Virus record (IMG/VR): IMGVR_UViG_3300010381_000011
Coordinates: 1 to 38,258 of that record
Strand: one strand, 5' to 3'
Length of the DNA stretch: 38,258 nucleotides
Origin: a virus
Taxonomy: Duplodnaviria; Caudoviricetes
Shown here: piece after piece, positions 1-12,697 of the stretch
Layout: every line of letters starts with the position of its first letter
Numbering within the stretch: position 1 is the stretch's first letter
The notes under the pieces: generated by a model
Database searches by the model: none
Seen by the model: the letters and a program-made list of their open reading frames with translations, nothing else
Told to the model about the DNA's origin: nothing
Translations under genes and position numbers: made by a program

Positions 1-618
1 TTACCCCGCCTCACCCACCGCTTGGTTCTGCCTCGGCGGCTCCAGACGCCGCTTTAACTCTCTGTTTTCTCGCTCTAATTCTTCCATGCGCTTCATCATC
101 TCGTCCGCCTTGGCCTCCCATTCCGCCATGCGCTCTTCGAGGCGCGCCAGCGTTCGCTCGCTCCTCACCGCTTGATGAAAAGCGTTGATATTACTCGCTA
201 AAGCTGTGCGATAGATGGTGTCGGACTCCAAGACTTCGGCCGTCTTGGTCAGCATGTCCGACATCCGAAACTCTTCCTGCGGGGCTGTCAGGAAGGCGTC
301 GGCAGACGGTGCGGATGTATCCCCAGGTTCAGCGGACTCTTTACGGTGCATCGGGCCAACACCTGTGACGAGCCAATCTATTGAAACCTTTGCTACCTCA
401 CCGACAGAAATAAACCACGAAGGCGGAATTTTATTCGCTGCACGTGCCTTGTTGATTGCTTGCCTGCTTATATCCAGAACGGATGCGAGTTCGCCGATAT
501 CATGGCTATTCGTGGCCAGGAGGAGTCGGTGGATGACGGCGTCAACAGGCTTCCGACTTTCAGGGGAGAAGTCGGAAGTTAAGCCGGAAGTGTTATTGTT
601 TACATTATTGTCAATCAT
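1..618 (-). CDS. Phage CI-like repressor (N-terminal HTH, C-terminal coiled coil)
   Basis: ELASVLDISRQAINKARAANKIP...VSIDWLVTGVGPM is a typical CI-type HTH; divergent from the early operon; exact start uncertain. Confidence 0.85.
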   Translation of the reverse strand: MIDNNVNNNTSGLTSDFSPESRKPVDAVIHRLLLATNSHDIGELASVLDISRQAINKARAANKIPPSWFISVGEVAKVSIDWLVTGVGPMHRKESAEPGDTSAPSADAFLTAPQEEFRMSDMLTKTAEVLESDTIYRTALASNINAFHQAVRSERTLARLEERMAEWEAKADEMMKRMEELERENRELKRRLEPPRQNQAVGEAG

Positions 619-671
619 TTCAGCGTATTACCTAAAAAAGACGGGAAAAAAGAACAAAAGAAAGTCGGAAG
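550..671. promoter_or_regulatory. Repeated AAG(T/C)CGGAAG sites, candidate operators/enhancer
   Basis: Copies at 550-559 (inverted), 569-578, 581-590 and 662-671, around the repressor start and early promoter. Confidence 0.55.
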
Positions 672-686
672 TACTTTTTTTACCCG

Positions 687-715
687 TTGACAACTTTTAC
701 TACAGAACTTAAACC
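687..715 (+). promoter_or_regulatory. Candidate early sigma70 promoter
   Basis: TTGACA 687-692, 17-nt spacer, TAAACC 710-715, in the AT-rich divergent intergenic region. Confidence 0.5.
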
Positions 716-817
716 TTTCCTCACGGGGTCACTTGACCCGTTGGAACCTAGCTAACAGGGGCGGCGGAAATCCTCAATGTCCAGTCCCCGGGAAAGTTTG
801 GATCGGAGAAATAGGAA

Positions 818-1252
818 TTGGCAGCCCAAGCCCGACAACTCAGCCTGCTCGAACTTCCCGAGCTCAATCCGGACGCGGACATTGCGATGTCCATGGATCG
901 GATCGTCCAAGCGGCGGGGCTGTCGCGGGCCGAGGCCGTGGATCGGCTCAATGAGGCTGCGCGACGGTTCGGGGTCCGGCTGGCGGCTGGCAGCGCCAAG
1001 GAGCTTGGGCTGGCCACCTTTGAGAAGTGGCTTAACCCGCAAGCGCCCGACTACGTGCCGAGCGTGCGCGCGCTCAACCTGTTTTGCCACGTCTTCGGCA
1101 CGCCCGAGCCGTTGGCCCTGCTGGTCAGGTCTCATGGAAAGGGTTGGCGCGTGATCGACGGCGAAGACGCCCGGCTCCTGGAATGGGCGCGGACGGAACA
1201 GGAAATCAAGCGCCTGCGGGCGCGCAAACGCAAGATCGAGACGGAACTATGA
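818..1252 (+). CDS. Putative phage regulatory protein (CII-like)
   Basis: First early ORF, SD-like AGGA upstream; TFEKWLNP-type segment; ATGA overlap with next gene. Confidence 0.65.
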   Translation: MAAQARQLSLLELPELNPDADIAMSMDRIVQAAGLSRAEAVDRLNEAARRFGVRLAAGSAKELGLATFEKWLNPQAPDYVPSVRALNLFCHVFGTPEPLALLVRSHGKGWRVIDGEDARLLEWARTEQEIKRLRARKRKIETEL

Positions 1253-1464
1253 AGCGAAACAGCAGGGAGATCAAAGCCTGGATGGCGCGCAAGGGCGTCT
1301 CCGTCGCCACGCTCGCCAAGGTTGCCGGCGTACCTCGTCAGCACATGTCCGACACCATCTGGGGCCGCCGCAACAACACCCTGGCTTTGCAGGGACTCGT
1401 GGACGCCGGCTGTCCAATGAAGTGGCTCGCCCTGCCGGAGACCAAGGACAAGCAAGCGGCCTAG
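1249..1464 (+). CDS. ner: Ner/Cro-like HTH DNA-binding protein
   Basis: MKRNSREIKAWMARKGVSVATLAKVAGVPRQHMSDTIWGRR; 71 aa; ATG 1249 overlaps upstream stop; ner-like position. Confidence 0.7.
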   Translation: MKRNSREIKAWMARKGVSVATLAKVAGVPRQHMSDTIWGRRNNTLALQGLVDAGCPMKWLALPETKDKQAA

Positions 1465-1476
1465 GCCGCCAGGAAT

Positions 1477-1579
1477 TTCCGCGCTCTCGCGGCGCCCGGG
1501 GGCCGAGCGGCCAGACCGCCAGTCCACCCGGCACGAGAGGTAGAGCGACACGATCGCCATCCCCTGCGGGGGCGCGGAA
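1477..1579 (+). ncRNA. Candidate structured intergenic RNA (multibranch)
   Basis: TTCCGCG 1477-1483/CGCGGAA 1573-1579 encloses CTCTCG/CGAGAG, CCGGG/CCCGG, GCGA/TCGC and CCCC/GGGG helices. Confidence 0.35.
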
Positions 1580-1608
1580 TATATCAAACAGGAAAGGAGG
1601 TTGGCGCA

Positions 1609-1806
1609 ATGAGCAGGCGGAAGCGGATGACCGGGAAGGCGGAAGAGATGCGGCAGATTGCCCAGGTTTTGAGGCAAAACCAGATACCGGAACCTGCCGT
1701 CAGGGCCGCGCTGCTGGGTATGTGCGGCGTCGGCATGATGATGCCCGACAGCGGGGATGGGTTCGAATCCGCGACCGCGAGGCGTTTCCTTGGGATGGAG
1801 GAATAG
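1609..1806 (+). CDS. Hypothetical protein
   Basis: Strong SD AAGGAGG upstream of ATG; 65 aa. Confidence 0.7.
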   Translation: MSRRKRMTGKAEEMRQIAQVLRQNQIPEPAVRAALLGMCGVGMMMPDSGDGFESATARRFLGMEE

Positions 1807-1810
1807 CGCC

Positions 1811-2251
1811 ATGAACAAGCGGATTCGAAAGAAAAAGGAAACGCAGTTCCAACGAGTCTTACGTGCTATAATGGCAGATGTTTGCGGAAAAAATGGCCCT
1901 ATTGGAGACAGAGGGGCCGGCATTATTGTCAGGGAATCAAAGAAGCACAGCGTCCCTCTTAAGATGCTGTATTCCTCCATGAAAAGAATTTTGCGCGCCG
2001 GCTTGGTCGTGGTGCCTGGAAGTGACCGCTGCGAGATATGGCTCTGTGGCGGCTACCCCACATACTTCGCCGATACTCCATTTCCTTACGACAAATGGGA
2101 AGATTTTCGGCTGTTCATAACGTCCAGACTCGTCGGCCGCAATGGCTGGCGAGACATGTACCGGATGGTGCGTCGGCTAGCCAGACAGTTCGGTGGCTTT
2201 GAATTTTGTTTCTTGGACGTTCCCGAAGAACCGAGCCCTCTTCCGGCTTGA
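1811..2251 (+). CDS. Hypothetical protein
   Basis: SD GGAGG then ATG 1811 (MNKRIRKKK...), 4 nt after the previous stop. Confidence 0.65.
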   Translation: MNKRIRKKKETQFQRVLRAIMADVCGKNGPIGDRGAGIIVRESKKHSVPLKMLYSSMKRILRAGLVVVPGSDRCEIWLCGGYPTYFADTPFPYDKWEDFRLFITSRLVGRNGWRDMYRMVRRLARQFGGFEFCFLDVPEEPSPLPA

Positions 2252-2256
2252 CCCCT

Positions 2257-2318
2257 TGCGAAACCGCCCCGCGCGGGCGGTCGTCGGACGGTGGCGCGTC
2301 CGGCCTGATGAGCAGCCA
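2257..2318 (+). ncRNA. Type II hammerhead ribozyme (HHR1)
   Basis: GAAA 2260-2263; stem III CCGCCC/GGGCGG; GUC cleavage triplet 2280-2282; stem I GUCGGACG/CGUCCGGC; CUGAUGA 2305-2311; open stem II UGC/GCA; pseudoknot UGGC(loop I)/GCCA(3' tail). Confidence 0.92.
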
Positions 2319-2320
2319 AG

Positions 2321-2980
2321 CTAAATGTCGAGCAATGTGGCCCACTCAGGAATGCCCTTAACAACAAAGTAGACATCCTCGAGACCATCACATGTGTAGG
2401 GAGTAAAAATAACAAGACCAATGTCGAACAACTGCTGAGTTGCTTCGTTGCAAAGCCTAGCGGCGACTGCAACTGAAACAAGTACTTGGCGAAAGCAACC
2501 CAAGGCGAGCCGACGTTTTGCCGGGTACAAAGGAGTAAGATCTAATGAGTAATAATATCGAGACCTCAGAGCTGTCGTCACCTCCAATGCCGCGACAAGA
2601 GATGGAGATGGAAGACCACGCTTACACCAAGCCTTCAACCGCTCCTGTGCATTACGAAGCGGGAAGGGAAGCTCAACAGTATCAACTGCGCGAATATGCT
2701 CCCATTGGTCTGGAAGACTATGTCGAGCTAGTGCGACGCTATGCCCCAGAAATGCTTGTGCAACTTTCCACTGCGACAAAAGACGATGCGCTTTGGGCGA
2801 AAGTTCAAGACCGGGCGCGCTCGGTTTTTTGTAAGGGGGCAAGAAGGTGTTCCGCAGCAAATAGACCCGGCTATCCCCTCTCTTGTGCATTTCAAAAATG
2901 GGCAATGGATAACCTTCGCCTGTTAGGGCTGTCCAATCTGGGACGTTCGGCAGTGGCTCGTTGTCGTCATGCGTTTTCAT
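2321..2980 (-). CDS. Hypothetical protein, reverse-oriented accessory (moron) gene
   Basis: 219 aa; SD GAGGT before ATG; own candidate promoter at 3036-3065; lower GC than flanks; stop 2 nt from HHR1. Confidence 0.6.
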   Translation of the reverse strand: MKTHDDNEPLPNVPDWTALTGEGYPLPIFEMHKRGDSRVYLLRNTFLPPYKKPSAPGLELSPKAHRLLSQWKVAQAFLGHSVALARHSLPDQWEHIRAVDTVELPFPLRNAQERLKAWCKRGLPSPSLVAALEVTTALRSRYYYSLDLTPLYPAKRRLALGCFRQVLVSVAVAARLCNEATQQLFDIGLVIFTPYTCDGLEDVYFVVKGIPEWATLLDI

Positions 2981-3030
2981 TAAACGACCTCATCTCTCTC
3001 ATCGAGGATGTGAATCAGGTGAACATGTAA
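2545..3030 (+). CDS. Possible overlapping hypothetical protein
   Basis: 161 aa with SD AAGGAG upstream of ATG; overlaps the minus-strand ORF by 436 nt. Confidence 0.35.
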   Translation: MSNNIETSELSSPPMPRQEMEMEDHAYTKPSTAPVHYEAGREAQQYQLREYAPIGLEDYVELVRRYAPEMLVQLSTATKDDALWAKVQDRARSVFCKGARRCSAANRPGYPLSCAFQKWAMDNLRLLGLSNLGRSAVARCRHAFSLNDLISLIEDVNQVNM

Positions 3031-3035
3031 CGGGG

Positions 3036-3065
3036 GTTCTATCAGGAGACGTGTTGAATCTTCAA
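3036..3065 (-). promoter_or_regulatory. Candidate sigma70 promoter for 2321..2980
   Basis: Minus strand TTGAAG-18-TAGAAC with TGn extension; homologous to the element at 3661-3690. Confidence 0.5.
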
Positions 3066-3126
3066 GCGAAACCGCCCTGCGCGGGCGGTCGTCGGACGGT
3101 GGCGCGTCCGGCCTGACGAGCAGCCA
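3066..3126 (+). ncRNA. Type II hammerhead ribozyme (HHR2)
   Basis: 60/62 identical to HHR1; GAAA 3068-3071, GUC 3088-3090, CUGACGA 3113-3119; the two differences are in loop III and the variable core position 7. Confidence 0.92.
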
Positions 3127-3142
3127 ACAAAGGAAACGCACT

Positions 3143-3361
3143 ATGGTCGAGAAGCCGCTCAAGGAATGGAATACCTGGGAATGGATTGATGCCGTTGAAG
3201 CCGCCAAGAAAAACATTGCTCCTGTCTTTGAGACAACAAAAGACCAGCGGATTGCCTCGGGGATCGTGGCGCTTTTGGAGTCTGCCGACGATCCGTTGAT
3301 TGTCCTTGAGGCAACCCGCCTCGCTTACGAAAAAATGTGTGGGTATCCTATAAGGTACTAA
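3143..3361 (+). CDS. Hypothetical protein
   Basis: 72 aa; SD AAGGA directly after HHR2. Confidence 0.65.
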   Translation: MVEKPLKEWNTWEWIDAVEAAKKNIAPVFETTKDQRIASGIVALLESADDPLIVLEATRLAYEKMCGYPIRY

Positions 3362-3612
3362 AGATATCCAGCAAGGCAGATATCTTTAGGGAGACCAGAG
3401 TGCTCAATGCAATGCTTGCAAATTAAATATCCTTTGGAGACAGCCCTTCGGGCGGCACTCTCAACACTGGAACCCTTGTTTACAATTTCTATGGCATGCT
3501 TTGCCTTGCCCATTTGCTCTAAGTTGCATGATCCAGTGATGCCGGAACCGATATGAACCTCTTTCGAGTCGTGATTGATGATGAGCAAGTCTTCAATGTT
3601 CGGGTTCAACAT
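3358..3612 (-). CDS. Hypothetical small protein, reverse-oriented (His/Cys, CxxC)
   Basis: 84 aa; SD AGGAG 8 nt before ATG; EVH..C..CKHC suggests metal binding. Confidence 0.65.
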   Translation of the reverse strand: MLNPNIEDLLIINHDSKEVHIGSGITGSCNLEQMGKAKHAIEIVNKGSSVESAARRAVSKGYLICKHCIEHSGLPKDICLAGYL

Positions 3613-3660
3613 TTCCGCGTCTCCTTTGCGGGTTGATGGTTGAAAGGACGGATAACGGAA

Positions 3661-3690
3661 ACCCTATCAGGGGACGCGGAACCTTTTCAA
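3661..3690 (-). promoter_or_regulatory. Candidate sigma70 promoter for 3358..3612
   Basis: Minus strand TTGAAA-18-TAGGGT with TGn extension. Confidence 0.55.
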
Positions 3691-3705
3691 GCGGACGGCG
3701 GCACA

Positions 3706-5811
3706 ATGCAAGACACCTACACGGCAAAATCAATCGCACAGGCGATGGACATCACGGAACGGGCAGCTCGTGCCAAGGCCGAAAAAGATGGTTGGCCCTT
3801 TGAGGAGCAGCCCTGCCGTGGCGGAAAGCGCCGCTTGTATCTTGCCGCCTCCCTCCCTGCCGAAGTCCAGGACGCCCTGACGGCCTCCGAGGGGGTGAAC
3901 CTGCCCGCCGAAGGGGCCGAACTCGCCCTTACCGAGGACCAACGGCGCGGCGCGTTGGCCCGGGCCGATCTGGTGCGACTCTACACCGAAGCCCTGGCCA
4001 AAGCCCCGCGCAAGGGCGCGGCGCAAAAGGAATTTCTCGCTGCCTACCGGGCCGGCGTGTGGCCGAAGATCAAAGAAGTGCTGGGGGATGCGGTGTCCGT
4101 GCAATCCCTGGAGCGCTGGAAGCTCAAGTTGCGCCGCACCGGTTCGGCCCTGGCCCTGGCCGACACACGCGGCGGCGTGCGCGTCGAACCGATTTTGACC
4201 GTGGCCCACCAGACCCTCATCGTTAACCTGGTCCGGCATCCCAACCAGCCCAACATCGCCGAGGTCTGCCGCGATGCCGTGAAATCCTTCAAATCGGCCG
4301 GGCTGCCGCCGTGTGCCGAAATCACCGTCCGCCGTTTCATCGAAAAGTGGATCGCCAACAATTACAGTGAGTTTGTGTACTCCAGGCGGGGCAAGAAGGC
4401 CTGGGTGGACGATTGCTGCCCTTACATCGAACGCGACTACTCGAAGATTCAGGTTGGCGACATCCTGGTGGCCGACGGCCACGTCCTCAACTTTGAGATC
4501 TTGGACCCGGAGACCGGCAAGGGCGCGCGCATGGAGCTGGTGCTCTGGTACGACATGAAGTCGTCGTATCCCCTGGGCTGGGAAATCCTGCCCACGGAAA
4601 ACACGCAAGCCATCGCCTCGGCCTTGCGCCGGGCCTGCCTGCGCCTCGGGAAGTTCCCTCGCATAGCCTACCTGGACAACGGCCGTGCGTTCAAGGGCAA
4701 GTTTTTCATGGGTGTTGATTTCAAGCAAACCGGTCTGGGCGGCGTCTTCCAGGAATTGGGCATCGCCCCAATGATCGCCGAAAAATACCACGGCCAGTCC
4801 AAGACTATCGAACGCTTTTTCGCCTCTTTCGGCGAGCTGGAACGCTGGTGCCCCTCCTACGTCGGCACCTGCATCGAAAACAAGCCTCCCCGACTCAAAC
4901 GCGGCGAGGAACTGCACCGGCGGCTCTACGAAGCCTCGGGCTACCGGCCGCTGACCATCCCCGAAGCCCATACGGCCATCGCCATGTGGTTCGATGAGTA
5001 CGCCCGGCGGCCCCAACGCGGCCACTTGCAAGGCCAGACGCCGCTTGAGGCGTACGCGCCGGGCGCTGGGCCGGGCCTGACCGACGCCGAACTGCTCAAG
5101 CTGCGGTTGTGCATGATGCACAAACGCATCCGTCAGATCGAGCAGAACGGGGTCAGCATTTTCGGACGGCATTACCGCCACCCCTTCCTCCACAGTCTCC
5201 GCCACCCGGTGCTGGTCCGCTACGACGACCAGGACCGGCGGTCCGTGCTGATCTACGACGAGACGGGCAAGCGGCTGATCTGCGAGGCCACGCCGGTGCC
5301 GAACACCGTGCATCCGGCCGCCGGCATCCTGGGCACGGAGGAGGACAAGGCGCTCCTGGCCTCCGAGCTCGCCTACAAAAAGGCCATCGAAAATCAGGCC
5401 ACGGCCTCCGCCCGGGAATTTTTGGATGCCGTGGTGCTGCCGGAGACGCGACAGCGCATGCGGCTGGTCGAGGCGGCCAAGGCCGAACCGGCCGCCCTGC
5501 CGGAACCGCCGGCCCCCAACGTCAAAAGCATCGAAGCCGCCAAGAGCGCGGCCCGGGCCAAGCTCGACGCCGCCCCGGCCTACGTGCCGCCGGCGCAACT
5601 ACCCAATATCGTAACAGAACTTGATCGTTACGAATACCTTTTCAACGTGTCCGTCCGGGACGGCGTGGACCTCCGTGAGGCCGATGCCGACTGGATGGCT
5701 CGTTACGAGCAAACCGAGGAATACGCGGCGTGCGCGCGGGGCCGTTTCGAGGGCCTGCGCCGGGTCTACGCGCGCCGCCGCATGGCCGCCAACGGGGAGG
5801 AGGCTTCATGA
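3706..5811 (+). CDS. muA: Mu-type DDE transposase (MuA-like)
   Basis: N-terminal Mu HTH (GGKRRLYLAASLPAEVQ); DDE motifs VADGH, YLDNG, KTIERFF; C-terminal VLVRYD Mu transposase region; ATG 3706 preferred. Confidence 0.95.
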   Translation: MQDTYTAKSIAQAMDITERAARAKAEKDGWPFEEQPCRGGKRRLYLAASLPAEVQDALTASEGVNLPAEGAELALTEDQRRGALARADLVRLYTEALAKAPRKGAAQKEFLAAYRAGVWPKIKEVLGDAVSVQSLERWKLKLRRTGSALALADTRGGVRVEPILTVAHQTLIVNLVRHPNQPNIAEVCRDAVKSFKSAGLPPCAEITVRRFIEKWIANNYSEFVYSRRGKKAWVDDCCPYIERDYSKIQVGDILVADGHVLNFEILDPETGKGARMELVLWYDMKSSYPLGWEILPTENTQAIASALRRACLRLGKFPRIAYLDNGRAFKGKFFMGVDFKQTGLGGVFQELGIAPMIAEKYHGQSKTIERFFASFGELERWCPSYVGTCIENKPPRLKRGEELHRRLYEASGYRPLTIPEAHTAIAMWFDEYARRPQRGHLQGQTPLEAYAPGAGPGLTDAELLKLRLCMMHKRIRQIEQNGVSIFGRHYRHPFLHSLRHPVLVRYDDQDRRSVLIYDETGKRLICEATPVPNTVHPAAGILGTEEDKALLASELAYKKAIENQATASAREFLDAVVLPETRQRMRLVEAAKAEPAALPEPPAPNVKSIEAAKSAARAKLDAAPAYVPPAQLPNIVTELDRYEYLFNVSVRDGVDLREADADWMARYEQTEEYAACARGRFEGLRRVYARRRMAANGEEAS

Positions 5812-6527
5812 AATCCGTCTTTGTGGAGACGTCCAACGTGACCGCGTTTCGGCGCGCCGTGTTGACCGTCGAGGACACCGAACGCGGCCAGCCGGGCCTT
5901 GTCGTGGCCTGGGGACAGGCCGGTCGCGGCAAGACCTTTGCCGCGCGCAACTCCCACGCCGAGCGCGGCGGGGTCTACCTGTCCGCCTGGGAAAATGAGA
6001 GCCAAGCCGCCTTTTTGGGACGGCTGTGCTTCGAGGCCACAGGGGCCAAAGCGCCACGCTCGGCCAGCACCTGCAAGGTAAAAATCATCGAGGCCTTGGA
6101 GAAACGCCGCGATCATGGGCAGGTCGCCACCATCTACATGGATGAGGCGGACAGGCTGCATTTCAGCCGGATCGAGGACTTGCGCGACATCCATGAGGCG
6201 ACCGGCGCGGCCGTGATCCTGATCGGCGAGGAAGAGCTGATCGGGCTTTTGTCCCAGCGCCGGCGCGTCTGGTCCCGCGTGACCCAGGAAGTTGCCTTTG
6301 CCCCGGTTGATGAGGCCGACGTCGCCGCTTTTGCTCTTGAGTCGGCGTCCCTCGACCTGACGCCCGAGGCCTGCGCCATGGTGCGCACCACGTCCGACGG
6401 CGACATGCGGCTTGTGCGCAACATGGTCGGGCTCCTGGAGCAAGCGGCCAAGGCCCGGGAAACGAACATCGCCGATGTGGCCATGGTGAAAGCCGTGCAA
6501 AAGCAACGATCCTGGAGGCGGTCATGA
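5808..6527 (+). CDS. muB: MuB-like AAA+ ATPase
   Basis: Walker A GQAGRGKT, Walker B IYMDEAD, LRDIHE; ATGA-coupled to the transposase. Confidence 0.93.
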   Translation: MKSVFVETSNVTAFRRAVLTVEDTERGQPGLVVAWGQAGRGKTFAARNSHAERGGVYLSAWENESQAAFLGRLCFEATGAKAPRSASTCKVKIIEALEKRRDHGQVATIYMDEADRLHFSRIEDLRDIHEATGAAVILIGEEELIGLLSQRRRVWSRVTQEVAFAPVDEADVAAFALESASLDLTPEACAMVRTTSDGDMRLVRNMVGLLEQAAKARETNIADVAMVKAVQKQRSWRRS

Positions 6528-7156
6528 GGACTCCGGACGCGGACCGCGTGCGCCTCGTCATCCAGGGGCTGTCCGTGGGCGGCAAAAAAAACGTGACCAA
6601 TGCCTTGGTCTTCGAGGCTTTGGGCTGCGCCATCGAGCCGGAAAAAGCCCGGGTGCGGCGGCAGATCAACGACATGGTGCGCCGGCAGGAACTCACGCGG
6701 GTGGAAGACGGTGTGTTTACCTACAACCCCAAGGCCGTAGGCAAGCGGCAAGCCGAATACCTGCACCGGATATGGCGGGCCATCCGTTCAGCCAAGCCGG
6801 GTTTTGGCTGCAAAGATTTGGCGTCGGTCACCCGGGCTTCCTACACCCACGTGATGCGTTACTGCGCTTGGCTCAAAGAGGACGGCTACCTTGAACCTCA
6901 CGGGATGCGTGGCCAAACGAGGCTCTACCGGGCCACGGAAAAAGCCCGCCAGCAGGTTGAAACGCCCTTCCCGCCCCGGCGCCTGAACGATCCCTTTGAC
7001 TCCCCGAAGCGGGAGGCTCTGGAACTCGTGCGGCTGTTTCTGATGGGCGATCCCTACCAGCCGGCCGTGCGTACCAAAATCGTCGAGAATTGCCGGGCCA
7101 TCCTGGCCCGCTTCGAGAAGGAGGAAAGCGAGGATGGACACAAAGTATCTGGTTAA
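6524..7156 (+). CDS. Hypothetical protein, possibly winged-HTH
   Basis: ATGA overlap, SD GGAGG; IWRAIR..FGCKDLA..YCAWLKEDGYL resembles Mu-like early HTH proteins. Confidence 0.75.
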   Translation: MRTPDADRVRLVIQGLSVGGKKNVTNALVFEALGCAIEPEKARVRRQINDMVRRQELTRVEDGVFTYNPKAVGKRQAEYLHRIWRAIRSAKPGFGCKDLASVTRASYTHVMRYCAWLKEDGYLEPHGMRGQTRLYRATEKARQQVETPFPPRRLNDPFDSPKREALELVRLFLMGDPYQPAVRTKIVENCRAILARFEKEESEDGHKVSG

Positions 7157-7328
7157 GGACGCCCTGGCCGAGTTGATGGCCGTTGACGGGCTCGACGGTG
7201 TGACGGCCATCAAAATCCACGTGGGCGCGGCCCGGGCCTGCTTGCGGATGGTGCTCGAACAAATGGAAGGCGTCGCCACGGCAAAGGTCGTCGGTCTTCC
7301 CCCCGCGAAGGAGGTGGCCCATGGCTAG
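7134..7328 (+). CDS. Hypothetical protein
   Basis: SD GGAGG upstream; fills the operon between neighbours. Confidence 0.6.
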   Translation: MDTKYLVKDALAELMAVDGLDGVTAIKIHVGAARACLRMVLEQMEGVATAKVVGLPPAKEVAHG

Positions 7329-7854
7329 GACGAAACCAAAGGTGCTCGCCCTTTCGGACATCAAGGAGGCCGATGCGGCCCTGGCCGAGTTGGCCGGCAT
7401 CAAGCGCGATCTGGCCGCGCTGGAACACGTCATGAACGAATCCATCGACAGCATCAAGGCCGAGGCCAAGGCGCAGTCCGCGCCGTTGGCGGCTCGCGCG
7501 AAGGACCTGGAGGTGGCCCTGGCCAACTTCTCCACGGCCCGCAAGGACGATTTATTCCCGAAAAAGAAGTCCCTGGACCTGACGTTCGGTGTCCTGGGTT
7601 TCCGGCAGTCCACCAAGCTCAAGACACTGGCGCGGTGGACCTGGAAGCTGGTGTTGGGGCGGCTCCAGGAACTGGCCGATTCCCCGGATGGCGGCGCTTT
7701 TCTCGAAGCGATCCGGATCAAGCCCGAGGTGGACAAGGAAGCCATGCGGGAGTGGCCGGAAGAACGCTTGGCGACGGTCGGCGTGCAACGGGTGGCCGAG
7801 GATGAATTCTTTTACGAGCTGAAAAGTGTGGAACTCAAGGAGGATGCGGCATGA
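7321..7854 (+). CDS. gam: Host nuclease inhibitor Gam family protein
   Basis: Coiled-coil N-terminus, KKKSLDLTFGVLGFRQS, IRIKPEVDKEAM, EDEFFYE. Confidence 0.9.
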   Translation: MARTKPKVLALSDIKEADAALAELAGIKRDLAALEHVMNESIDSIKAEAKAQSAPLAARAKDLEVALANFSTARKDDLFPKKKSLDLTFGVLGFRQSTKLKTLARWTWKLVLGRLQELADSPDGGAFLEAIRIKPEVDKEAMREWPEERLATVGVQRVAEDEFFYELKSVELKEDAA

Positions 7855-8126
7855 ACAAGGCGGAACTTGTTGACGATTTGGCCGGGCACGAGGGCCTTAG
7901 CAAGGCCCAGACGGAGCGCGTGCTGGACACGCTGTCACGAAGCATCACCGAGGCGTTGCGCGCCGGCAACAAGGTGGTGTTGCCGGGCCTGGGGCACCTG
8001 GAACCCGTGACCCGCAAGGGACACTGGGGGCGCAATCCCCGCACCGGGGAGCGGCTTTATATCCAGGACACGCGGGGCGTGGCCTTCCGGCCGGGGAAAG
8101 CCCTCAAGGACGCTCTTAAATCCTGA
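7851..8126 (+). CDS. HU/IHF family DNA-binding protein
   Basis: MNKAELVD..., GRNPRTGE, FRPGKALKDAL. Confidence 0.93.
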   Translation: MNKAELVDDLAGHEGLSKAQTERVLDTLSRSITEALRAGNKVVLPGLGHLEPVTRKGHWGRNPRTGERLYIQDTRGVAFRPGKALKDALKS

Positions 8127-8189
8127 TGCGAAACCGCCCCGCGCGGGCGGTCGTCTCGGCGTGGCGGCCGAGGCCTGATGAGCAGCCAC
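8127..8189 (+). ncRNA. Type II hammerhead ribozyme (HHR3)
   Basis: GAAA 8130-8133, GUC 8150-8152, stem I GUCUCGGC/GCCGAGGC (compensatory changes versus HHR1/2), CUGAUGA 8175-8181, pseudoknot GUGGC/GCCAC. Confidence 0.93.
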
Positions 8190-8198
8190 GGATACCAT

Positions 8199-8642
8199 AT
8201 GCGCATCTATATCGCATCATCCTGGAAGAACCAGCACGCCGTAGAGTTGTTGTCCGACCTCTTGGAGGACAACGGATATCAAGTGGTCTCCTTTGTGGCC
8301 GCACGGCGACGCGAGGAAGGCGGCACCTGCACCGGACCGGTGGATGTTGACGCCTGGATCAATTCAGAAGCCGGGCGGCAAATGTTCCATCACGACCTCG
8401 ACGGGGCCTGCCGCTCCGACCTGGTCATTTACCTTGGCCCCTCGGGCACCGATGCCTGGGCTGAGGTCGGCGCGGCCTGGGCGTCCGGCGTGCCGGTCCT
8501 CGGACTCCTGGCCAAAGGCGAACGGGCCGGGCTCATGCGGCGCATGGTGTCGCGGTGGTTCAACGATCACCGGGAGTTGCTGCGTTTCTTGGAAGAAGCC
8601 CAGGATGAGGATGAATCCCTCCTGGAAGCCTGTGTGGGGTGA
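8199..8642 (+). CDS. Nucleoside 2-deoxyribosyltransferase-like protein
   Basis: MRIYIAS start; SDLVIYLGPSGTDAWAEVGAAWASGVPV matches the NDT-like D..GT...E.G.A pattern; the upstream ATG 8178 lies inside the ribozyme core. Confidence 0.65.
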   Translation: MRIYIASSWKNQHAVELLSDLLEDNGYQVVSFVAARRREEGGTCTGPVDVDAWINSEAGRQMFHHDLDGACRSDLVIYLGPSGTDAWAEVGAAWASGVPVLGLLAKGERAGLMRRMVSRWFNDHRELLRFLEEAQDEDESLLEACVG

Positions 8643-8645
8643 CCA

Positions 8646-8858
8646 ATGCCCAGCGCAGAAGATCGTTTTTACGCCGAGGATAGGGCCATCCGGGGCCGGG
8701 CCGGCATCCTGGACCGGAAAAATGGCGATCGGCTGGTTTGCTTTTTCTTTGCCGATCCGGCCTGCCCGGAACACGCCCCGCGCATGGCCCGGGTATGCGC
8801 CCGGGCGCTCAACCTTGCCGTGACCAAACCGACGCAAGGGAGTCTGACCGATGGCTAA
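8646..8858 (+). CDS. Hypothetical protein
   Basis: Packed between neighbours in the operon; 70 aa. Confidence 0.55.
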   Translation: MPSAEDRFYAEDRAIRGRAGILDRKNGDRLVCFFFADPACPEHAPRMARVCARALNLAVTKPTQGSLTDG

Positions 8859-9129
8859 GAAATGTGACGGCGGGACCTATTGGCTCGCCTGGGTGGCGGA
8901 TCGGCCCGGGTACACGGTCCTGGAGGCCGAGGCCGGGTACAAGCCCTGCAAAAAGCCCGGGACGTATGTCGCCCGGCAGTTTGCCGACGGTTTGCGTTGC
9001 CCGGGATGCGTGCGGCGCTGCCGTATCCCCGAGACGGCGGGCATTGCCCATGACGACAGCATCCTGCTGCTCAAGAAGGGAGAATATCTCTCCTCTGCAC
9101 AGCGCATCTCCACAACGCGAAGGAACTAG
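8851..9129 (+). CDS. Hypothetical Cys-rich protein
   Basis: SD GGGAG; CPGCVRRC; 92 aa. Confidence 0.55.
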   Translation: MAKKCDGGTYWLAWVADRPGYTVLEAEAGYKPCKKPGTYVARQFADGLRCPGCVRRCRIPETAGIAHDDSILLLKKGEYLSSAQRISTTRRN

Positions 9130-10083: not shown

Positions 10084-10509
10084 ATGAGCGAGAAGCGCCA
10101 AAAATCGACAACGATTTTGCTCCGAAACCAGGGCAAGACGATCAAGCTGGAGCTGTTCCCGGCGTCGGCCTGGGGCGGTCCTGCCGACGCCTGCCGGGTA
10201 CGCATGGACGGCTGTTGGTACAACCCGGCGGGCGAGCGCCATGAATTTTTCACGCCGGCCGGCTTGATGGGGGTGCTCTTCCGCCTGTTGGCCGACCAGG
10301 AACCGCTCCAGGATGCGCCCAATCCGCCGTATCGTCGCGGTAACCGGGTGTCCGTGCCCACAGGACGGATAGGCCCTGATGGAGCGCCTGCCTACGAAGG
10401 GACGTGGCTGGCCGGTGTGCCGATCCTGGGCATCGACGGCCGCTGGTGGGCTCCGGTGGTCGGCCGTGACGAACCTGTGCCCCTGGATACCGTGAGGAGG
10501 CGATTATGA
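10084..10509 (+). CDS. Hypothetical protein
   Basis: SD GAGG, ATG 10084 (MSEKRQK); ATGA overlap with next gene. Confidence 0.65.
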   Translation: MSEKRQKSTTILLRNQGKTIKLELFPASAWGGPADACRVRMDGCWYNPAGERHEFFTPAGLMGVLFRLLADQEPLQDAPNPPYRRGNRVSVPTGRIGPDGAPAYEGTWLAGVPILGIDGRWWAPVVGRDEPVPLDTVRRRL

Positions 10510-10952
10510 GCGGGGTCTTTGACGATCTGCTGCGGCTGTTGTCCCGGGGGTGGGTGCCGTATTACGGTCGGGTCGAGGGACGCGTGTATGAGCAGTTGGG
10601 GTGCGCCAAGTCGCGTCAGGCCCGGTGGATGGTGCGTGATGGTATGTATGTCTGCCTGGGTTGCGGCAAGCGGTGCAGTCTGGCCAATCCTGCCGGGTTC
10701 GAACTCTTGTTGCCGGTGACGAAGAGGACAAGGAATTTCGTTTATGCGGCTTTACCCGCCGTTTCCGCGCACGATCTACTGACGAAAAAAATGCTGCTTA
10801 CAGTTCCCGAGGTGTCCTTTATTTTGAGTATAAGTGATCGGAAAGTGTACGAATTAGTAGATGAAGGGCGGTTGGAGCGTCATCCCGATCTGCCTATTCG
10901 TGTCACGGCCGAAAGTGTACGGCGTGAGGCGGCGCGGCTCAAAGAGGGGTAG
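10506..10952 (+). CDS. Zn-finger plus MerR/Xis-like HTH protein, candidate late-gene activator
   Basis: C..CLGCGKRC and LLTVPEVSFILSISDRKVYELVDEGRL; last early gene, at the position of Mu C/Mor. Confidence 0.7.
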   Translation: MSGVFDDLLRLLSRGWVPYYGRVEGRVYEQLGCAKSRQARWMVRDGMYVCLGCGKRCSLANPAGFELLLPVTKRTRNFVYAALPAVSAHDLLTKKMLLTVPEVSFILSISDRKVYELVDEGRLERHPDLPIRVTAESVRREAARLKEG

Positions 10953-11002
10953 CGAGACAGTTGATTGCCCTCTTAAATAGCGTATACGTAGAATCCGAGT
11001 TG

Positions 11003-11467
11003 TTATTTCTTATGTTTCTTTCGTATTATTATTTGACTAGAGTCACATGTTTGCATGAATAATTCCTTCCGGTTCTTTTCTTGCTCTTTCTTGATTACGT
11101 CATGACTTTGACGGCATAATATCGAGTCTGCCGCTTCTTTTGACATCTTTTTTTTGATAATATAGACAATATTACTTTGACATTTGCATTTATTGCACGG
11201 ATAATTATTCCTAAATTTTCTATATATAATACGAAAATTTGTATCCAATTGGAATATATTTTTTATATATTCCAGACTAATATTATTTGTGTGTTTGCAA
11301 TGTTTACATACGACAAACAGCCCATCAATAAAATCTTGAATAAAATACAATGACAAAGAAAAATCAACCCTAAATTCATAAGGCCTTTGGCGTGTATGTT
11401 CTTTTGTGTAATTATCATTACAGACAGACCACCGTTGAAAATTTCGAGAAACTGTTTTGTAGGCCAT
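11003..11467 (-). CDS. AT-rich hypothetical accessory protein
   Basis: 154 aa; SD GAGG; two CxxC motifs; strongly AT-rich island. Confidence 0.6.
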   Translation of the reverse strand: MAYKTVSRNFQRWSVCNDNYTKEHTRQRPYEFRVDFSLSLYFIQDFIDGLFVVCKHCKHTNNISLEYIKNIFQLDTNFRIIYRKFRNNYPCNKCKCQSNIVYIIKKKMSKEAADSILCRQSHDVIKKEQEKNRKELFMQTCDSSQIIIRKKHKK

Positions 11468-11600
11468 TTATTACCTCAATAAAAGATAGTATTATAAGAC
11501 AACTCCATTGCTGGCGCTCAATCAACAATTTCGACATAAGATAATCAGTAAAATCGGAGCCAATGCTCACCATAGAATCTGTCGATTATATTTTTAATAT

Positions 11601-11629
11601 AAGTTATGCGTTGATTGGCCATGGGTCAA
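11601..11629 (-). promoter_or_regulatory. Candidate sigma70 promoter for 11003..11467
   Basis: Minus strand TTGACC-17-TAACTT. Confidence 0.45.
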
Positions 11630-11721
11630 GGGGCCTTAGCGCTGAAGGCACCCTCTTAGATGAAAATGCCTAATATCACAGAGACACACTACCGCCTTTG
11701 TGTCTCCATTACGGGTGACGA

Positions 11722-12162
11722 ATGAAATTCGGTCCACGCATCCCTTCCTTCAAAAAACGAATTGCCGCGCGCACGTCGCTGTCGCGCTATGTCCGGCACT
11801 CGCTCGGTCTCAAGGCCCCGCGCGGCTGGGGCTGGATCACCAACCCCAAAAAAGCGGCTTATAATCGGGTGTACAACCGCACAACATGGGGCTGTCTACT
11901 CCCTGTGTTGCTGGGCCTTTTGCTGGTGGCGCTCTTTGGCGGATGGGCACTGGCCGCCAACACCGAGACCACCCAGCCCAGGGACGCCAAGCTGTACGAC
12001 CGCTCGGGACGGTATCAGGGCCGGGTCACGTCCAATGGCCACGGCCAAGCCAAGACCTACGACAAGTCCGGCCAGTATCAGGGAAAGGCCGTACGCCAGG
12101 GCAACACCATCAAACTCTATGACAAGTCCGGCCATTACATCGGCCGGGTTAATACTCGATAA
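11722..12162 (+). CDS. Hypothetical membrane protein with basic N-terminus and three YD(K/R)SG repeats
   Basis: MKFGPRIPSFKKRIAARTS..NPKKAAYNRVYNRTT, hydrophobic segment, then KLYDRSGRYQG / KTYDKSGQYQG / KLYDKSGHYIG. Confidence 0.7.
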   Translation: MKFGPRIPSFKKRIAARTSLSRYVRHSLGLKAPRGWGWITNPKKAAYNRVYNRTTWGCLLPVLLGLLLVALFGGWALAANTETTQPRDAKLYDRSGRYQGRVTSNGHGQAKTYDKSGQYQGKAVRQGNTIKLYDKSGHYIGRVNTR

Positions 12163-12238: not shown

Positions 12239-12697
12239 ATGCAACGCATCAGATACCCCCAAGCGATTGTCGTCCTTGTGCTCCTGCTCCAGGTCGCCGG
12301 CCTCCCGGCGGCCTGGGGCGCGGAGCCTGTGTACCACGAGTCCGTGGCCGCTGTGGTGGACCACGTCCACGACGGGGACACCATCATCGTGGCCGTGCCG
12401 TCCTGGCCGGCCGTGGTCTCGCCCATCCAGGTCCGCGTGGCCGGCATCGACACCCCCGAGCTGCATGACAAACGGCCCCCGATCCGCGCCCTGGCGCTCA
12501 TGGCCCGGGATTGGGTGGCCGACCATCTGCCGGCCGGCGCGGCCGTGACCCTGCGCCGCGTGCGGCGGGACAAGTATTTCCGCCTGCTCGCCGACGTGGA
12601 TGTGACGGTGGATGGCGAGACCCGCGATCTGGCCACGGAGCTGGTGCGACGCGGCTTGGCCAAACCCTATACCGGCCAGGGCGCAAAGCCCTGGTAA
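12239..12697 (+). CDS. Thermonuclease (SNase-like) with signal peptide
   Basis: VHDGDTI, VRVAGIDTPE, DKYFRLLADV, ELVRRGLA; N-terminal hydrophobic signal. Confidence 0.9.
   Translation: MQRIRYPQAIVVLVLLLQVAGLPAAWGAEPVYHESVAAVVDHVHDGDTIIVAVPSWPAVVSPIQVRVAGIDTPELHDKRPPIRALALMARDWVADHLPAGAAVTLRRVRRDKYFRLLADVDVTVDGETRDLATELVRRGLAKPYTGQGAKPW

What the first reader, a model, noticed from the sequence alone, without database searches (positions are those of the whole stretch)
2257..8189. Three type II hammerhead ribozymes punctuate the early operon
Seen: three ~62-nt copies (2257-2318, 3066-3126, 8127-8189) each have the full hammerhead core (GAAA, stem III, GUC, stem I, CUGANGA), a 2-3 bp open stem II and a loop I (GUGGCG)/3' tail (GCCA) pseudoknot. 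HHR3 stem I differs from HHR1/2 by compensatory changes (GUCGGACG/CGUCCGGC versus GUCUCGGC/GCCGAGGC), which indicates selection on structure. HHR1 and HHR3 begin 0-5 nt after a stop codon; HHR2 and HHR3 end 9-16 nt before a start codon. Known: type II hammerheads occur in phage and prophage sequences, with unclear function. Inference: self-cleavage after 2282, 3090 and 8152 cuts the early transcript into a regulator piece, an 808-nt cassette, a 5062-nt A-B-gam-HU transposition piece and a downstream semi-essential/activator piece. Each downstream piece would start with a 5'-OH hairpin, giving ribozyme-based control of transposase and late-activator mRNA stability.
Basis: partly seen in the sequence, partly recalled or inferred. 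Interest (0 to 1): 0.9.

Follow-up and report, generated by a model that had tools for sequence, protein, structure and literature searches.

The report
Hammerhead ribozymes bordering Mu-phage gene slots
Three type II hammerhead ribozyme motifs sit at gene junctions in the early operon of a Mu-like prophage, where they likely cut the long message and border slots in which accessory genes differ between relatives; the class and its link to Mu-like phages are already published, and the purpose is still untested.

Summary
All three copies are Rfam RF02276 hits (63-76 bits, cut-off 37), with the stated cores, stems, cut sites and piece lengths. The window is a Mu-like provirus.

The arrangement is known: clustered prophage hammerheads (Perreault 2011), strongest association with Mu-like genes (PMC10085705), and close look-alikes in Desulfovibrio vulgaris that cleave in vivo (Olzog 2021). 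This scan noted similar clusters on other DNA.

The reading needs correcting. HHR3, between gam/HU and gemA, is the conserved copy (8 of 8 relatives examined). A ribozyme before the transposase is optional: 7 intact, 2 damaged, 6 absent in 15 relatives. No Mor/C activator was found. HHR1 and HHR2 lead two stacked accessory units that each occur without the other in relatives. The real gene of the 808-nt piece is antisense (219 aa, 2980-2321), behind a conserved leftward promoter-like element, so the piece is probably not a sense mRNA.

Most likely role: RiboJ-like insulators at swappable gene slots. The direction of any stability effect is open, since kin hosts encode both RNase E/G and an RNase J-family protein. 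Cultured phages DMS3, JBD30 and RcapMu carry the conserved copy and make the question testable.

The parts
2258..2319 (+). HHR1, type II hammerhead; predicted cut after 2282; leads accessory unit 1
   Evidence: RF02276 63.6 bits; coordinates
2321..2980 (-). Antisense gene of unit 1, 219 aa, family of unknown function; fills most of the 808-nt piece
   Evidence: 21 representatives at E<=0.001; 18 synonymous vs 13 non-synonymous codon changes against a relative; a homolog lies antisense just after repressor/ner genes in L264
3028..3068 (-). Diverged second copy of the leftward promoter-like element (TTGAAG-18-TAGAAC); its last bases overlap the first bases of HHR2
   Evidence: 28 of 41 bases identical to 3653-3693; alignment; promoter function inferred
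3066..3127 (+). HHR2, type II hammerhead; predicted cut after 3090; leads accessory unit 2
   Evidence: RF02276 63.3 bits; 60/62 identical to HHR1
3143..3361 (+). Sense gene of unit 2, 72 aa, unknown function, convergent with the antisense gene
   Evidence: ORF list; called in other assemblies, cluster of 2
3358..3612 (-). Antisense gene of unit 2, 84 aa, unknown function
   Evidence: AAGGAG ribosome site in sequence; 4 silent vs 1 replacement change against a relative; cluster of 2
3613..3693 (-). Conserved leftward promoter-like element (-35 TTGAAA 3685-3690, 18 nt, TG-n-TAGGGT 3661-3666) with leader and ribosome site, directly upstream of A
   Evidence: Conserved before A in related prophages; not flagged by the consensus scan; promoter function inferred
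3706..8126 (+). Mu-like core: transposase A (3706-5811), B (5808-6527), two unknown genes, Gam (7321-7854), HU (7851-8126)
   Evidence: PHROG 310, 296, 491, 379; PF00216
8128..8189 (+). HHR3, type II hammerhead; predicted cut after 8152; the conserved family position between gam/HU and gemA
   Evidence: RF02276 75.5 bits; same position in relatives
8199..9129 (+). Accessory genes behind HHR3: nucleoside deoxyribosyltransferase-like gene and two small ORFs, not found in three close relatives
   Evidence: phrog_12607; no match in L002, L003, L004
9132..10952 (+). gemA-like gene and distal early genes ending in an HTH_17 protein (10506-10952); no Mor/C hit
   Evidence: PF06252, PF12728 below cut-off; NCBIfam; Atlas
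1..2251 (.). Repressor (1-618, -), regulator (818-1252), ner-like gene (1249-1464), and two unknown ORFs (1609-1806, 1811-2251) upstream of HHR1
   Evidence: PHROG scan; TIGR04111 weak hit

Best explanation
The three motifs are type II hammerheads placed at gene junctions of a Mu-like early operon, at the 5' edge of slots whose genes differ between relatives, and they likely cut the transcript as it is made so that each downstream module would get a fixed 5' end regardless of what lies upstream. Shown: identity and structure of the motifs; position just after a stop codon and just before a ribosome site as a family rule; variable genes behind them; HHR1+unit 1 and HHR2+unit 2 each occur without the other in relatives. 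Inferred step 1: cleavage after 2282, 3090, 8152, by analogy with validated D. vulgaris look-alikes. Inferred step 2: the upstream piece ends in the stem III hairpin with a 2',3'-cyclic phosphate, the downstream piece starts with a 5'-OH on the stem I hairpin followed by the ribosome site, as with the synthetic insulator RiboJ, so translation and decay of neighbouring modules are uncoupled. Inferred step 3: because the motif is conserved DNA between variable genes, it also serves as a recombination joint; the HHR1/HHR2 pair arose when a second unit was stacked in front of A. The 808-nt piece would then be a by-product, antisense to a leftward gene, not a purpose-built mRNA.
For: Junction rule: a stop codon within 5 nt before the motif in 162 of 199 contexts (random control 3.5%) and ribosome site plus start within 30 nt after it in 147 of 199 (control 10.4%); 185 and 179 of 235 with a better parser. 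Genes behind the motif are diverse: 181 proteins in 100 families, 79 singletons. 100 of 121 long loci with a structured motif carry A-like and B-like genes on the same strand, 13 another Mu-like marker, 8 none; among 17 genome loci that matched the pattern without stems, 13 had none. Stacking: contigs in three runs of three studies join unit 1 directly to the A leader (3027 to 3653, 6 shared letters), others hold unit 2, and one holds 227 other letters in the slot. The end of unit 1 is a diverged A-leader copy. L059 has the orf1609 start fused to the 3' half of a ribozyme. L076 has three copies behind gam, two identical. Six of 38 within-locus pairs are >=90% identical against 1.1% between loci. 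Units are low in G+C (48-51% vs 64%).
Against: No cleavage, RNA end or expression datum exists for this window; the one RNA-labelled run gave only contigs. Tight spacing to the stop codon may just reflect compact phage genomes. The ner-A slot exists and varies without any ribozyme in 4 relatives, so the ribozyme is not needed for exchange there, and two pre-A copies have decayed. Median within-locus identity is only 0.83, low for frequent homologous recombination. Depth of the 808-nt unitig (289.7) matches its flanks (274, 292.6), so no excised or deleted DNA form is visible in the source sample. HHR2 is predicted to misfold at equilibrium. Five of five genomes carrying kin prophages encode both RNase E/G and a TIGR00649 protein (RNase J family, name recalled), so a 5'-OH end could stabilise or destabilise. 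The loci are related to each other and were found with a pattern written from these three motifs, in scans that stopped at 13 and 17 of 64 parts.
Confidence: 0.6

Rival explanations
1. One reading: the ribozymes are dedicated regulators of transposase and late-activator mRNA stability.
For: HHR2 heads the piece that carries A-B-gam-HU; a pre-A ribozyme is intact in 7 of 15 relatives; in L028 a ribozyme lies directly before A and in L277 one gene before it; gemA often follows the conserved copy.
Against: Absent or damaged in 8 of 15 relatives, including L002 and L003 with 72-73% identical transposase; 4 of 127 before A in the wider sample; 616 nt and two genes separate the cut from A; no Mor/C hit.
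Confidence: 0.15
2. The ribozymes release a discrete antisense RNA that shuts off the leftward accessory genes when the early operon switches on; the 808-nt piece covers the whole 219-aa gene and its leader.
For: The gene is real and antisense; the leftward promoter-like element is conserved before A and drives at least seven unrelated antisense ORFs across relatives; both ends of the piece would be hairpin-protected.
Against: In relatives unit 1 has one ribozyme only and runs straight into A; four relatives have the antisense slot with no ribozyme; the family homolog in L264 has none nearby, though that contig ends there; the promoter did not pass the consensus scan; convergent transcription alone could silence the gene.
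Confidence: 0.12
3. Cleavage reads translation or prevents polarity: a ribosome stopping at the adjacent codon would cover stem II and the GAAA core, or cutting would release Rho from untranslated RNA before it reaches A.
For: Stop codons abut the motif in about 80% of contexts; upstream coding sequence can pair with stem I in L001 and L004, and the orf3143 start region with stem I of HHR2; HHR2 follows about 800 nt of RNA with no conserved sense gene.
Against: Compact genomes explain the spacing; the alternative folds are not conserved (L032 and L028 fold natively); single-unit relatives put untranslated antisense RNA before A with no ribozyme behind it.
Confidence: 0.08
4. The 808-nt unit is a retrozyme- or viroid-like RNA that circularises and moves through an RNA stage.
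For: Two near-identical hammerheads flank a unit of suitable size.
Against: No rod-like fold (z -0.29); no ribozyme on the - strand; no reverse transcriptase among 51 ORFs scanned; relatives carry the unit with one ribozyme; Perreault 2011 looked for circles in such clusters and found none.
Confidence: 0.03

Closest known systems
Type II hammerhead ribozyme with loop I/3'-tail pseudoknot, Rfam RF02276; clustered in prophages (Perreault et al. 2011, PMC3088659)
   Same: Same family above cut-off; several copies flank single genes or short blocks whose identity is not constant; operon processing proposed there, and triple arrangements cleaved in vitro.
   Different: Here two copies flank a unit whose conserved gene is antisense, and the pair can be traced to two stacked units. 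The main text has no occurrence of Mu-like or transposase.
Three type II hammerheads of Desulfovibrio vulgaris (Olzog et al. 2021, PMC8782182)
   Same: Same core, stem III start, loop and cut site; near phage-like and DNA-binding genes; two copies about 310 nt apart; cleave in vitro and in cells.
   Different: One locus of one and one of two copies, against three in one operon here; function was not addressed there.
Enrichment of self-cleaving ribozymes near Mu-like phage genes (stated in PMC10085705, citing its refs 25 and 26, which I could not read)
   Same: The window is a direct example; the paper says the strongest associations were with Mu-like phage genes and the reason is unknown.
PeSL cassettes of T4-type phages (Arbiol et al. 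2010, PMC2839356; abstract only)
   Same: Repeated small expression elements at the borders of variable genes, with shuffling by recombination between copies.
   Different: PeSLs are promoter plus terminator and form DNA mini-circles; here the element is a ribozyme and no circle was seen.
RiboJ insulator (synthetic; described in PMC8942793)
   Same: Hammerhead plus hairpin before a ribosome site, giving the same mRNA whatever lies upstream.
   Different: Engineered, different topology (recalled), used behind promoters; the natural role here is inferred.

Membership tests
Hammerhead type II (RF02276) | Covariance-model score above the family cut-off | tested here: met
   63.3-75.5 bits against 37
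Hammerhead type II (RF02276) | Core CUGANGA, GAAA, NUH with stems I and III closed and stem II open | tested here: met
   Sequence and alignments; covariation
Hammerhead type II (RF02276) | Pseudoknot between loop I and the 3' tail | tested here: met
   4-5 possible pairs in each copy; 98.1% of cells paired in 27 sequences, but no two-sided change
Hammerhead type II (RF02276) | Self-cleavage at the NUH site | not testable with these tools
   Look-alikes cleave (PMC8782182); no raw reads were available
Mu-like transposable phage | Repressor, ner-like gene, DDE transposase A, B ATPase, Gam, GemA, then head and tail genes | tested here: met
   PHROG and Pfam scans; ner and GemA hits are weak
Mu-like transposable phage | Mor/C-family middle or late activator at the end of the early operon | tested here: inconclusive
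   No Mor hit; an HTH_17 protein holds the place
Retrozyme or viroid-like circular RNA | Unit flanked by tandem hammerheads | tested here: met
   808-nt spacing, 60/62 identity
Retrozyme or viroid-like circular RNA | Highly self-paired unit | tested here: not met
   z -0.29, 9 of 20 shuffles fold as well
Retrozyme or viroid-like circular RNA | Circular RNA detected | not testable with these tools
   Only contigs were available
PeSL-type shuffling cassette | Repeated element at borders of variable genes | tested here: met
PeSL-type shuffling cassette | Element is a sigma-70 promoter with a terminator stem-loop | tested here: not met
   It is a ribozyme; no promoter or terminator flagged at the three sites
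PeSL-type shuffling cassette | DNA mini-circles from exchange between copies | tested here: inconclusive
   Unitig depth equals flanks; contigs drop rare forms

The most novel reading that the evidence does not exclude
Mu-like phages use hammerheads as dual-purpose joints: in RNA they cut the early transcript into self-contained modules, in DNA they let ribozyme-led gene units be swapped and stacked. In this clade the unit holds a gene expressed leftward in the lysogen, and on induction the ribozymes cut out an end-protected, full-length antisense RNA (808 nt here) that silences it: a ribozyme-made antisense switch for a prophage accessory gene of an uncharacterised family.
Probability: 0.12. 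Interest if true: 0.72.

Novelty: new member of a known kind. Interest (0 to 1): 0.33.

Why it matters
Why bacterial self-cleaving ribozymes cluster near Mu-like phage genes is an open question stated in print (PMC10085705, PMC6765202). This window does not answer it and comes from an uncultured provirus. The comparison does sharpen it: the conserved copy sits between gam/HU and gemA, directly after a stop codon and before a ribosome site, at the edge of a variable slot, and cultured phages DMS3, JBD30 and RcapMu carry it, so one point mutation can test function. If the insulator-and-joint model holds, it would be a natural counterpart of RiboJ and explain how transposable phages take up accessory genes without disturbing core genes. 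The leftward expression slot before A, with many unrelated antisense genes, is a separate lead for prophage accessory functions.

Tried and rejected
(1) Sense ORF 2545-3030 as the cassette gene: rejected; 2 silent vs 13 replacement codon changes against a relative, and only this genome's own shorter call as homolog. The count uses the 34 substitutions inside 2321-2980 that searches listed, of 47 differences over 2258-3027. (2) Rod-like circular RNA: z -0.29. (3) RNA evidence: run X2 is labelled RNA but comes from the source sample, has contigs up to 79 kb and covers the whole stretch; its breaks at HHR1/2 match the DNA run and come from the 38-nt exact repeat; a contig runs across HHR3. It shows neither cleavage nor its absence. 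(4) Function of the 219-aa protein: no Pfam, PHROG-adjacent, NCBIfam or PDB sequence hit, only two single-member weak PADLOC hits among 23 members, model pLDDT 82.9 with no Foldseek match at E<=0.001 and best Z 4.9; Atlas score 0.75. This does not show a new fold. (5) Defence genes: no PADLOC hit for 10 slot proteins. (6) Loci for the 219-aa gene: none in viral contigs, one weak partial in metagenome contigs (L134, dropped), 2 of 401 genomes. (7) Antisense strand of the ribozyme as terminator for leftward transcripts: not flagged. (8) Other ribozyme classes in the window: none. (9) Stem III probabilities were mis-indexed and are replaced. (10) L275 was a chance match and was dropped; L271 and L272 repeat the antisense proteins of L004 and L018 and were counted once.


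Full report
1. Observation. The three motifs are real. Rfam gives RF02276 at 2256-2321, 3064-3129 and 8126-8191 (63.6, 63.3, 75.5 bits; cut-off 37) and nothing else above threshold; a permissive scan finds no further ribozyme. HHR1 and HHR2 differ at 2 of 62 positions. Across 27 hand-picked family members the structure covaries strongly in stems I and III, while the pseudoknot is nearly invariant. With native flanks and no pseudoknot term, stems I and III form in HHR1 and HHR3, but stem I of HHR2 has probability 0.03-0.39; 52 of 248 family members behave likewise, so this is a caution only.

2. Setting. The window is the whole 38-kb virus record, classed as a provirus. PHROG annotation of 51 ORFs shows a Mu-like layout: repressor, regulator, ner-like gene, transposase A, B, Gam, HU, gemA-like gene, lysis, head and contractile tail genes. 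A Desulfovibrionaceae-type host is inferred: the DNA before A matched in 8 of 401 genomes of the family of G001, whose locus L158 is titled Fundidesulfovibrio; one of the eight was a chance match. No Mor/C activator was detected; the last early gene has an HTH_17 domain.

3. Family rule. A pattern written from these motifs returned 126 viral and 125 genome stretches from partial scans (13 and 17 of 64 parts). After removing 12 own, overlapping or irrelevant loci, 246 remained; 145 were at least 6 kb long and 125 of these held a motif with proper stems. Leaving out the four found by transposase, 100 of 121 carry A-like and B-like genes on the ribozyme's strand, 13 another Mu-like marker, 8 none. 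Of 17 genome loci with the pattern but no stems, 13 had no marker. The profiles were built from this window's proteins and could include non-phage transposases. Of 127 ribozymes in A+B loci, 123 lie after B and 4 before A; 26 directly follow HU and 12 gam. A stop codon lies within 5 nt upstream in 162 of 199 contexts and a ribosome site with start within 30 nt downstream in 147 of 199, against 3.5% and 10.4% at random positions; the improved parser gave 185 and 179 of 235. The 181 downstream proteins fall into 100 families; the larger ones include DUF2786/DUF7168, GemA and HU. One non-Mu contig, L037, has 24 Rfam hits, most leading one small gene each. These loci are related to one another, so the counts are not independent events.

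4. Close relatives. All 8 relatives examined over that region have a ribozyme between gam/HU and gemA (L001-L004, L018, L032, L059, L076). The genes behind it vary: the deoxyribosyltransferase-like gene is in L001 and L076 but not L002-L004, and L076 inserts two more ribozyme-led genes. Before A the picture differs. L002 and L003 join ner to A directly. The others have an insert ending, except in L277, in a conserved leftward element: a -35-like hexamer, 18 nt, TG-n-TAGGGT, a leader and an AGGAG site that opens an antisense ORF. The consensus scan did not flag it, so promoter function is inferred from conservation. The antisense ORFs belong to at least seven unrelated groups. A ribozyme precedes the slot intact in 7 relatives (L001, L004, L032, L268, L270, L276, L277), damaged in 2 (L274 core changed; L059 5' half lost) and absent in 6 (L002, L003, L018, L076, L269, L273).

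5. The 808-nt piece. Two ORFs overlap in it. The minus-strand one (2980-2321, 219 aa) has two same-length homologs at 75% and 69% and 21 representatives at E<=0.001. Against a relative, 18 codons change silently and 13 not, with 20 of 34 listed substitutions at third positions (p 0.002); the plus-strand ORF 2545-3030 shows 2 and 13. So the gene is antisense. A homolog sits antisense just after repressor and ner genes in L264, and one after a transposase in L265, with no ribozyme detected in either. Its function is unknown. The piece ends in a diverged copy of the leftward element (28 of 41 identical) whose last bases are the first of HHR2. Contigs in runs X3, X4 and X7 (three studies) join this unit straight to the A leader; other contigs in the same runs hold unit 2, and X4 holds other fillings. 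The window therefore carries two stacked units, each of the form ribozyme, cargo, leftward element. The piece has no special fold, and its depth in the source sample equals its flanks.

6. Mechanism. Most likely (0.6): cleavage during transcription gives the upstream piece a hairpin and cyclic phosphate end and the downstream piece a 5'-OH hairpin next to a ribosome site, insulating modules as RiboJ does, while the conserved DNA serves as a joint for exchange. Identity, position and variability are shown; cleavage is inferred from look-alikes; insulation and recombination at the motif are inferred. Against it: no RNA data here; slots vary without ribozymes; within-locus copies are only 0.83 identical at the median, though 6 of 38 pairs reach 0.9 against 1.1% between loci. 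The sign of any stability effect is open: that 5'-OH ends resist RNase E but not RNase J is recalled knowledge, and five of five genomes with kin prophages encode both kinds (the RNase J name for TIGR00649 is recalled). Rivals: dedicated transposase or activator control (0.15), ribozyme-made antisense silencer (0.12), translation or Rho coupling (0.08), RNA circle (0.03).

7. What is known. PMC3088659 (passages and first part of the Discussion) describes type II hammerheads, their pseudoknot, and clusters flanking variable genes in prophages, proposes operon processing, and reports no circles. PMC8782182 (passages, whole section 7, supplement passages) shows cleavage of three close look-alikes in D. 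vulgaris. PMC10085705 (one passage) says the strongest gene associations are with Mu-like phages and the reason is unknown; one likely source paper was not held, and its supplements may already hold the position rule. PMC6765202 (passages) calls bacterial ribozyme roles largely elusive. PMC2839356 (abstract) and PMC8942793 (passages) supply the PeSL and RiboJ analogies. Ten searches showed no functional test of such a ribozyme in a Mu-like phage; none was aimed at the leftward slot, so I make no claim that it is unpublished. This scan has noted similar clusters in other genomes and nothing on this one.

8. Test systems. A blastn search of cultured phages found 188 records covering at least 80% of HHR3. 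The three I checked, DMS3, JBD30 and RcapMu, have RF02276 above cut-off (66.2, 66.2, 71.9 bits) directly after an annotated stop codon in the early region, in RcapMu right after HU.

9. Verdict. Real, well-formed and ordinary for its class: a new member of a known arrangement. Interest 0.33, mostly for the traceable stacking, the antisense cargo and the route to a direct test.

Noticed in passing
window 3613-3693 (-) and 3028-3068 (-); L001, L004, L018, L032, L059, L076, L268-L274, L276: Conserved leftward promoter-like element with ribosome site directly before Mu-like transposase A, opening unrelated antisense genes (56-219 aa), often convergent with a small sense gene; looks like an accessory-gene hot spot of this phage clade.
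   Followed up: partly
window 2321-2980 (-); L264:9561-10142; L265:7540-8226: Uncharacterised family of about 200-230 aa with invariant N, Y, H, K, N residues, confident model (pLDDT 83) and no clear structural match.
   Followed up: partly
L037:5917-13505 (-): 24 RF02276 hits in under 8 kb, most followed by a ribosome site and one small ORF whose stop abuts the next ribozyme; no Mu-like marker found in the locus.
   Followed up: partly
L259:8950-9021 (DMS3), L261:2999-3070 (JBD30), L260:8999-9069 (RcapMu): Unannotated type II hammerheads in cultured transposable phages, at the conserved early-operon position.
   Followed up: partly
L059:2630-2688; L274:1104-1171: Decayed pre-A ribozymes: one is a 3' half fused to the start of an orf1609-like gene, the other has an altered GAAA core.
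   Followed up: yes
window 10960-11640: Island of 32% G+C after the early operon, with a minus-strand ORF (11003-11467, 154 aa) and four plus-strand promoter-like sites including TTGACA-17-GATAAT at 11177; no family hit.
   Followed up: no
window 3091-3160: The 3' product of HHR2 can refold so that stem I pairs with the ribosome site and start of orf3143.
   Followed up: partly
window 11722-12162 and 12239-12697: Small ORF with internal repeats and a thermonuclease-like gene (phrog_452) ahead of the lysis genes.
   Followed up: no
L005:11632-11811: isrK and C4 antisense RNA hits in a distant transposable phage that has no hammerhead hit.
   Followed up: no
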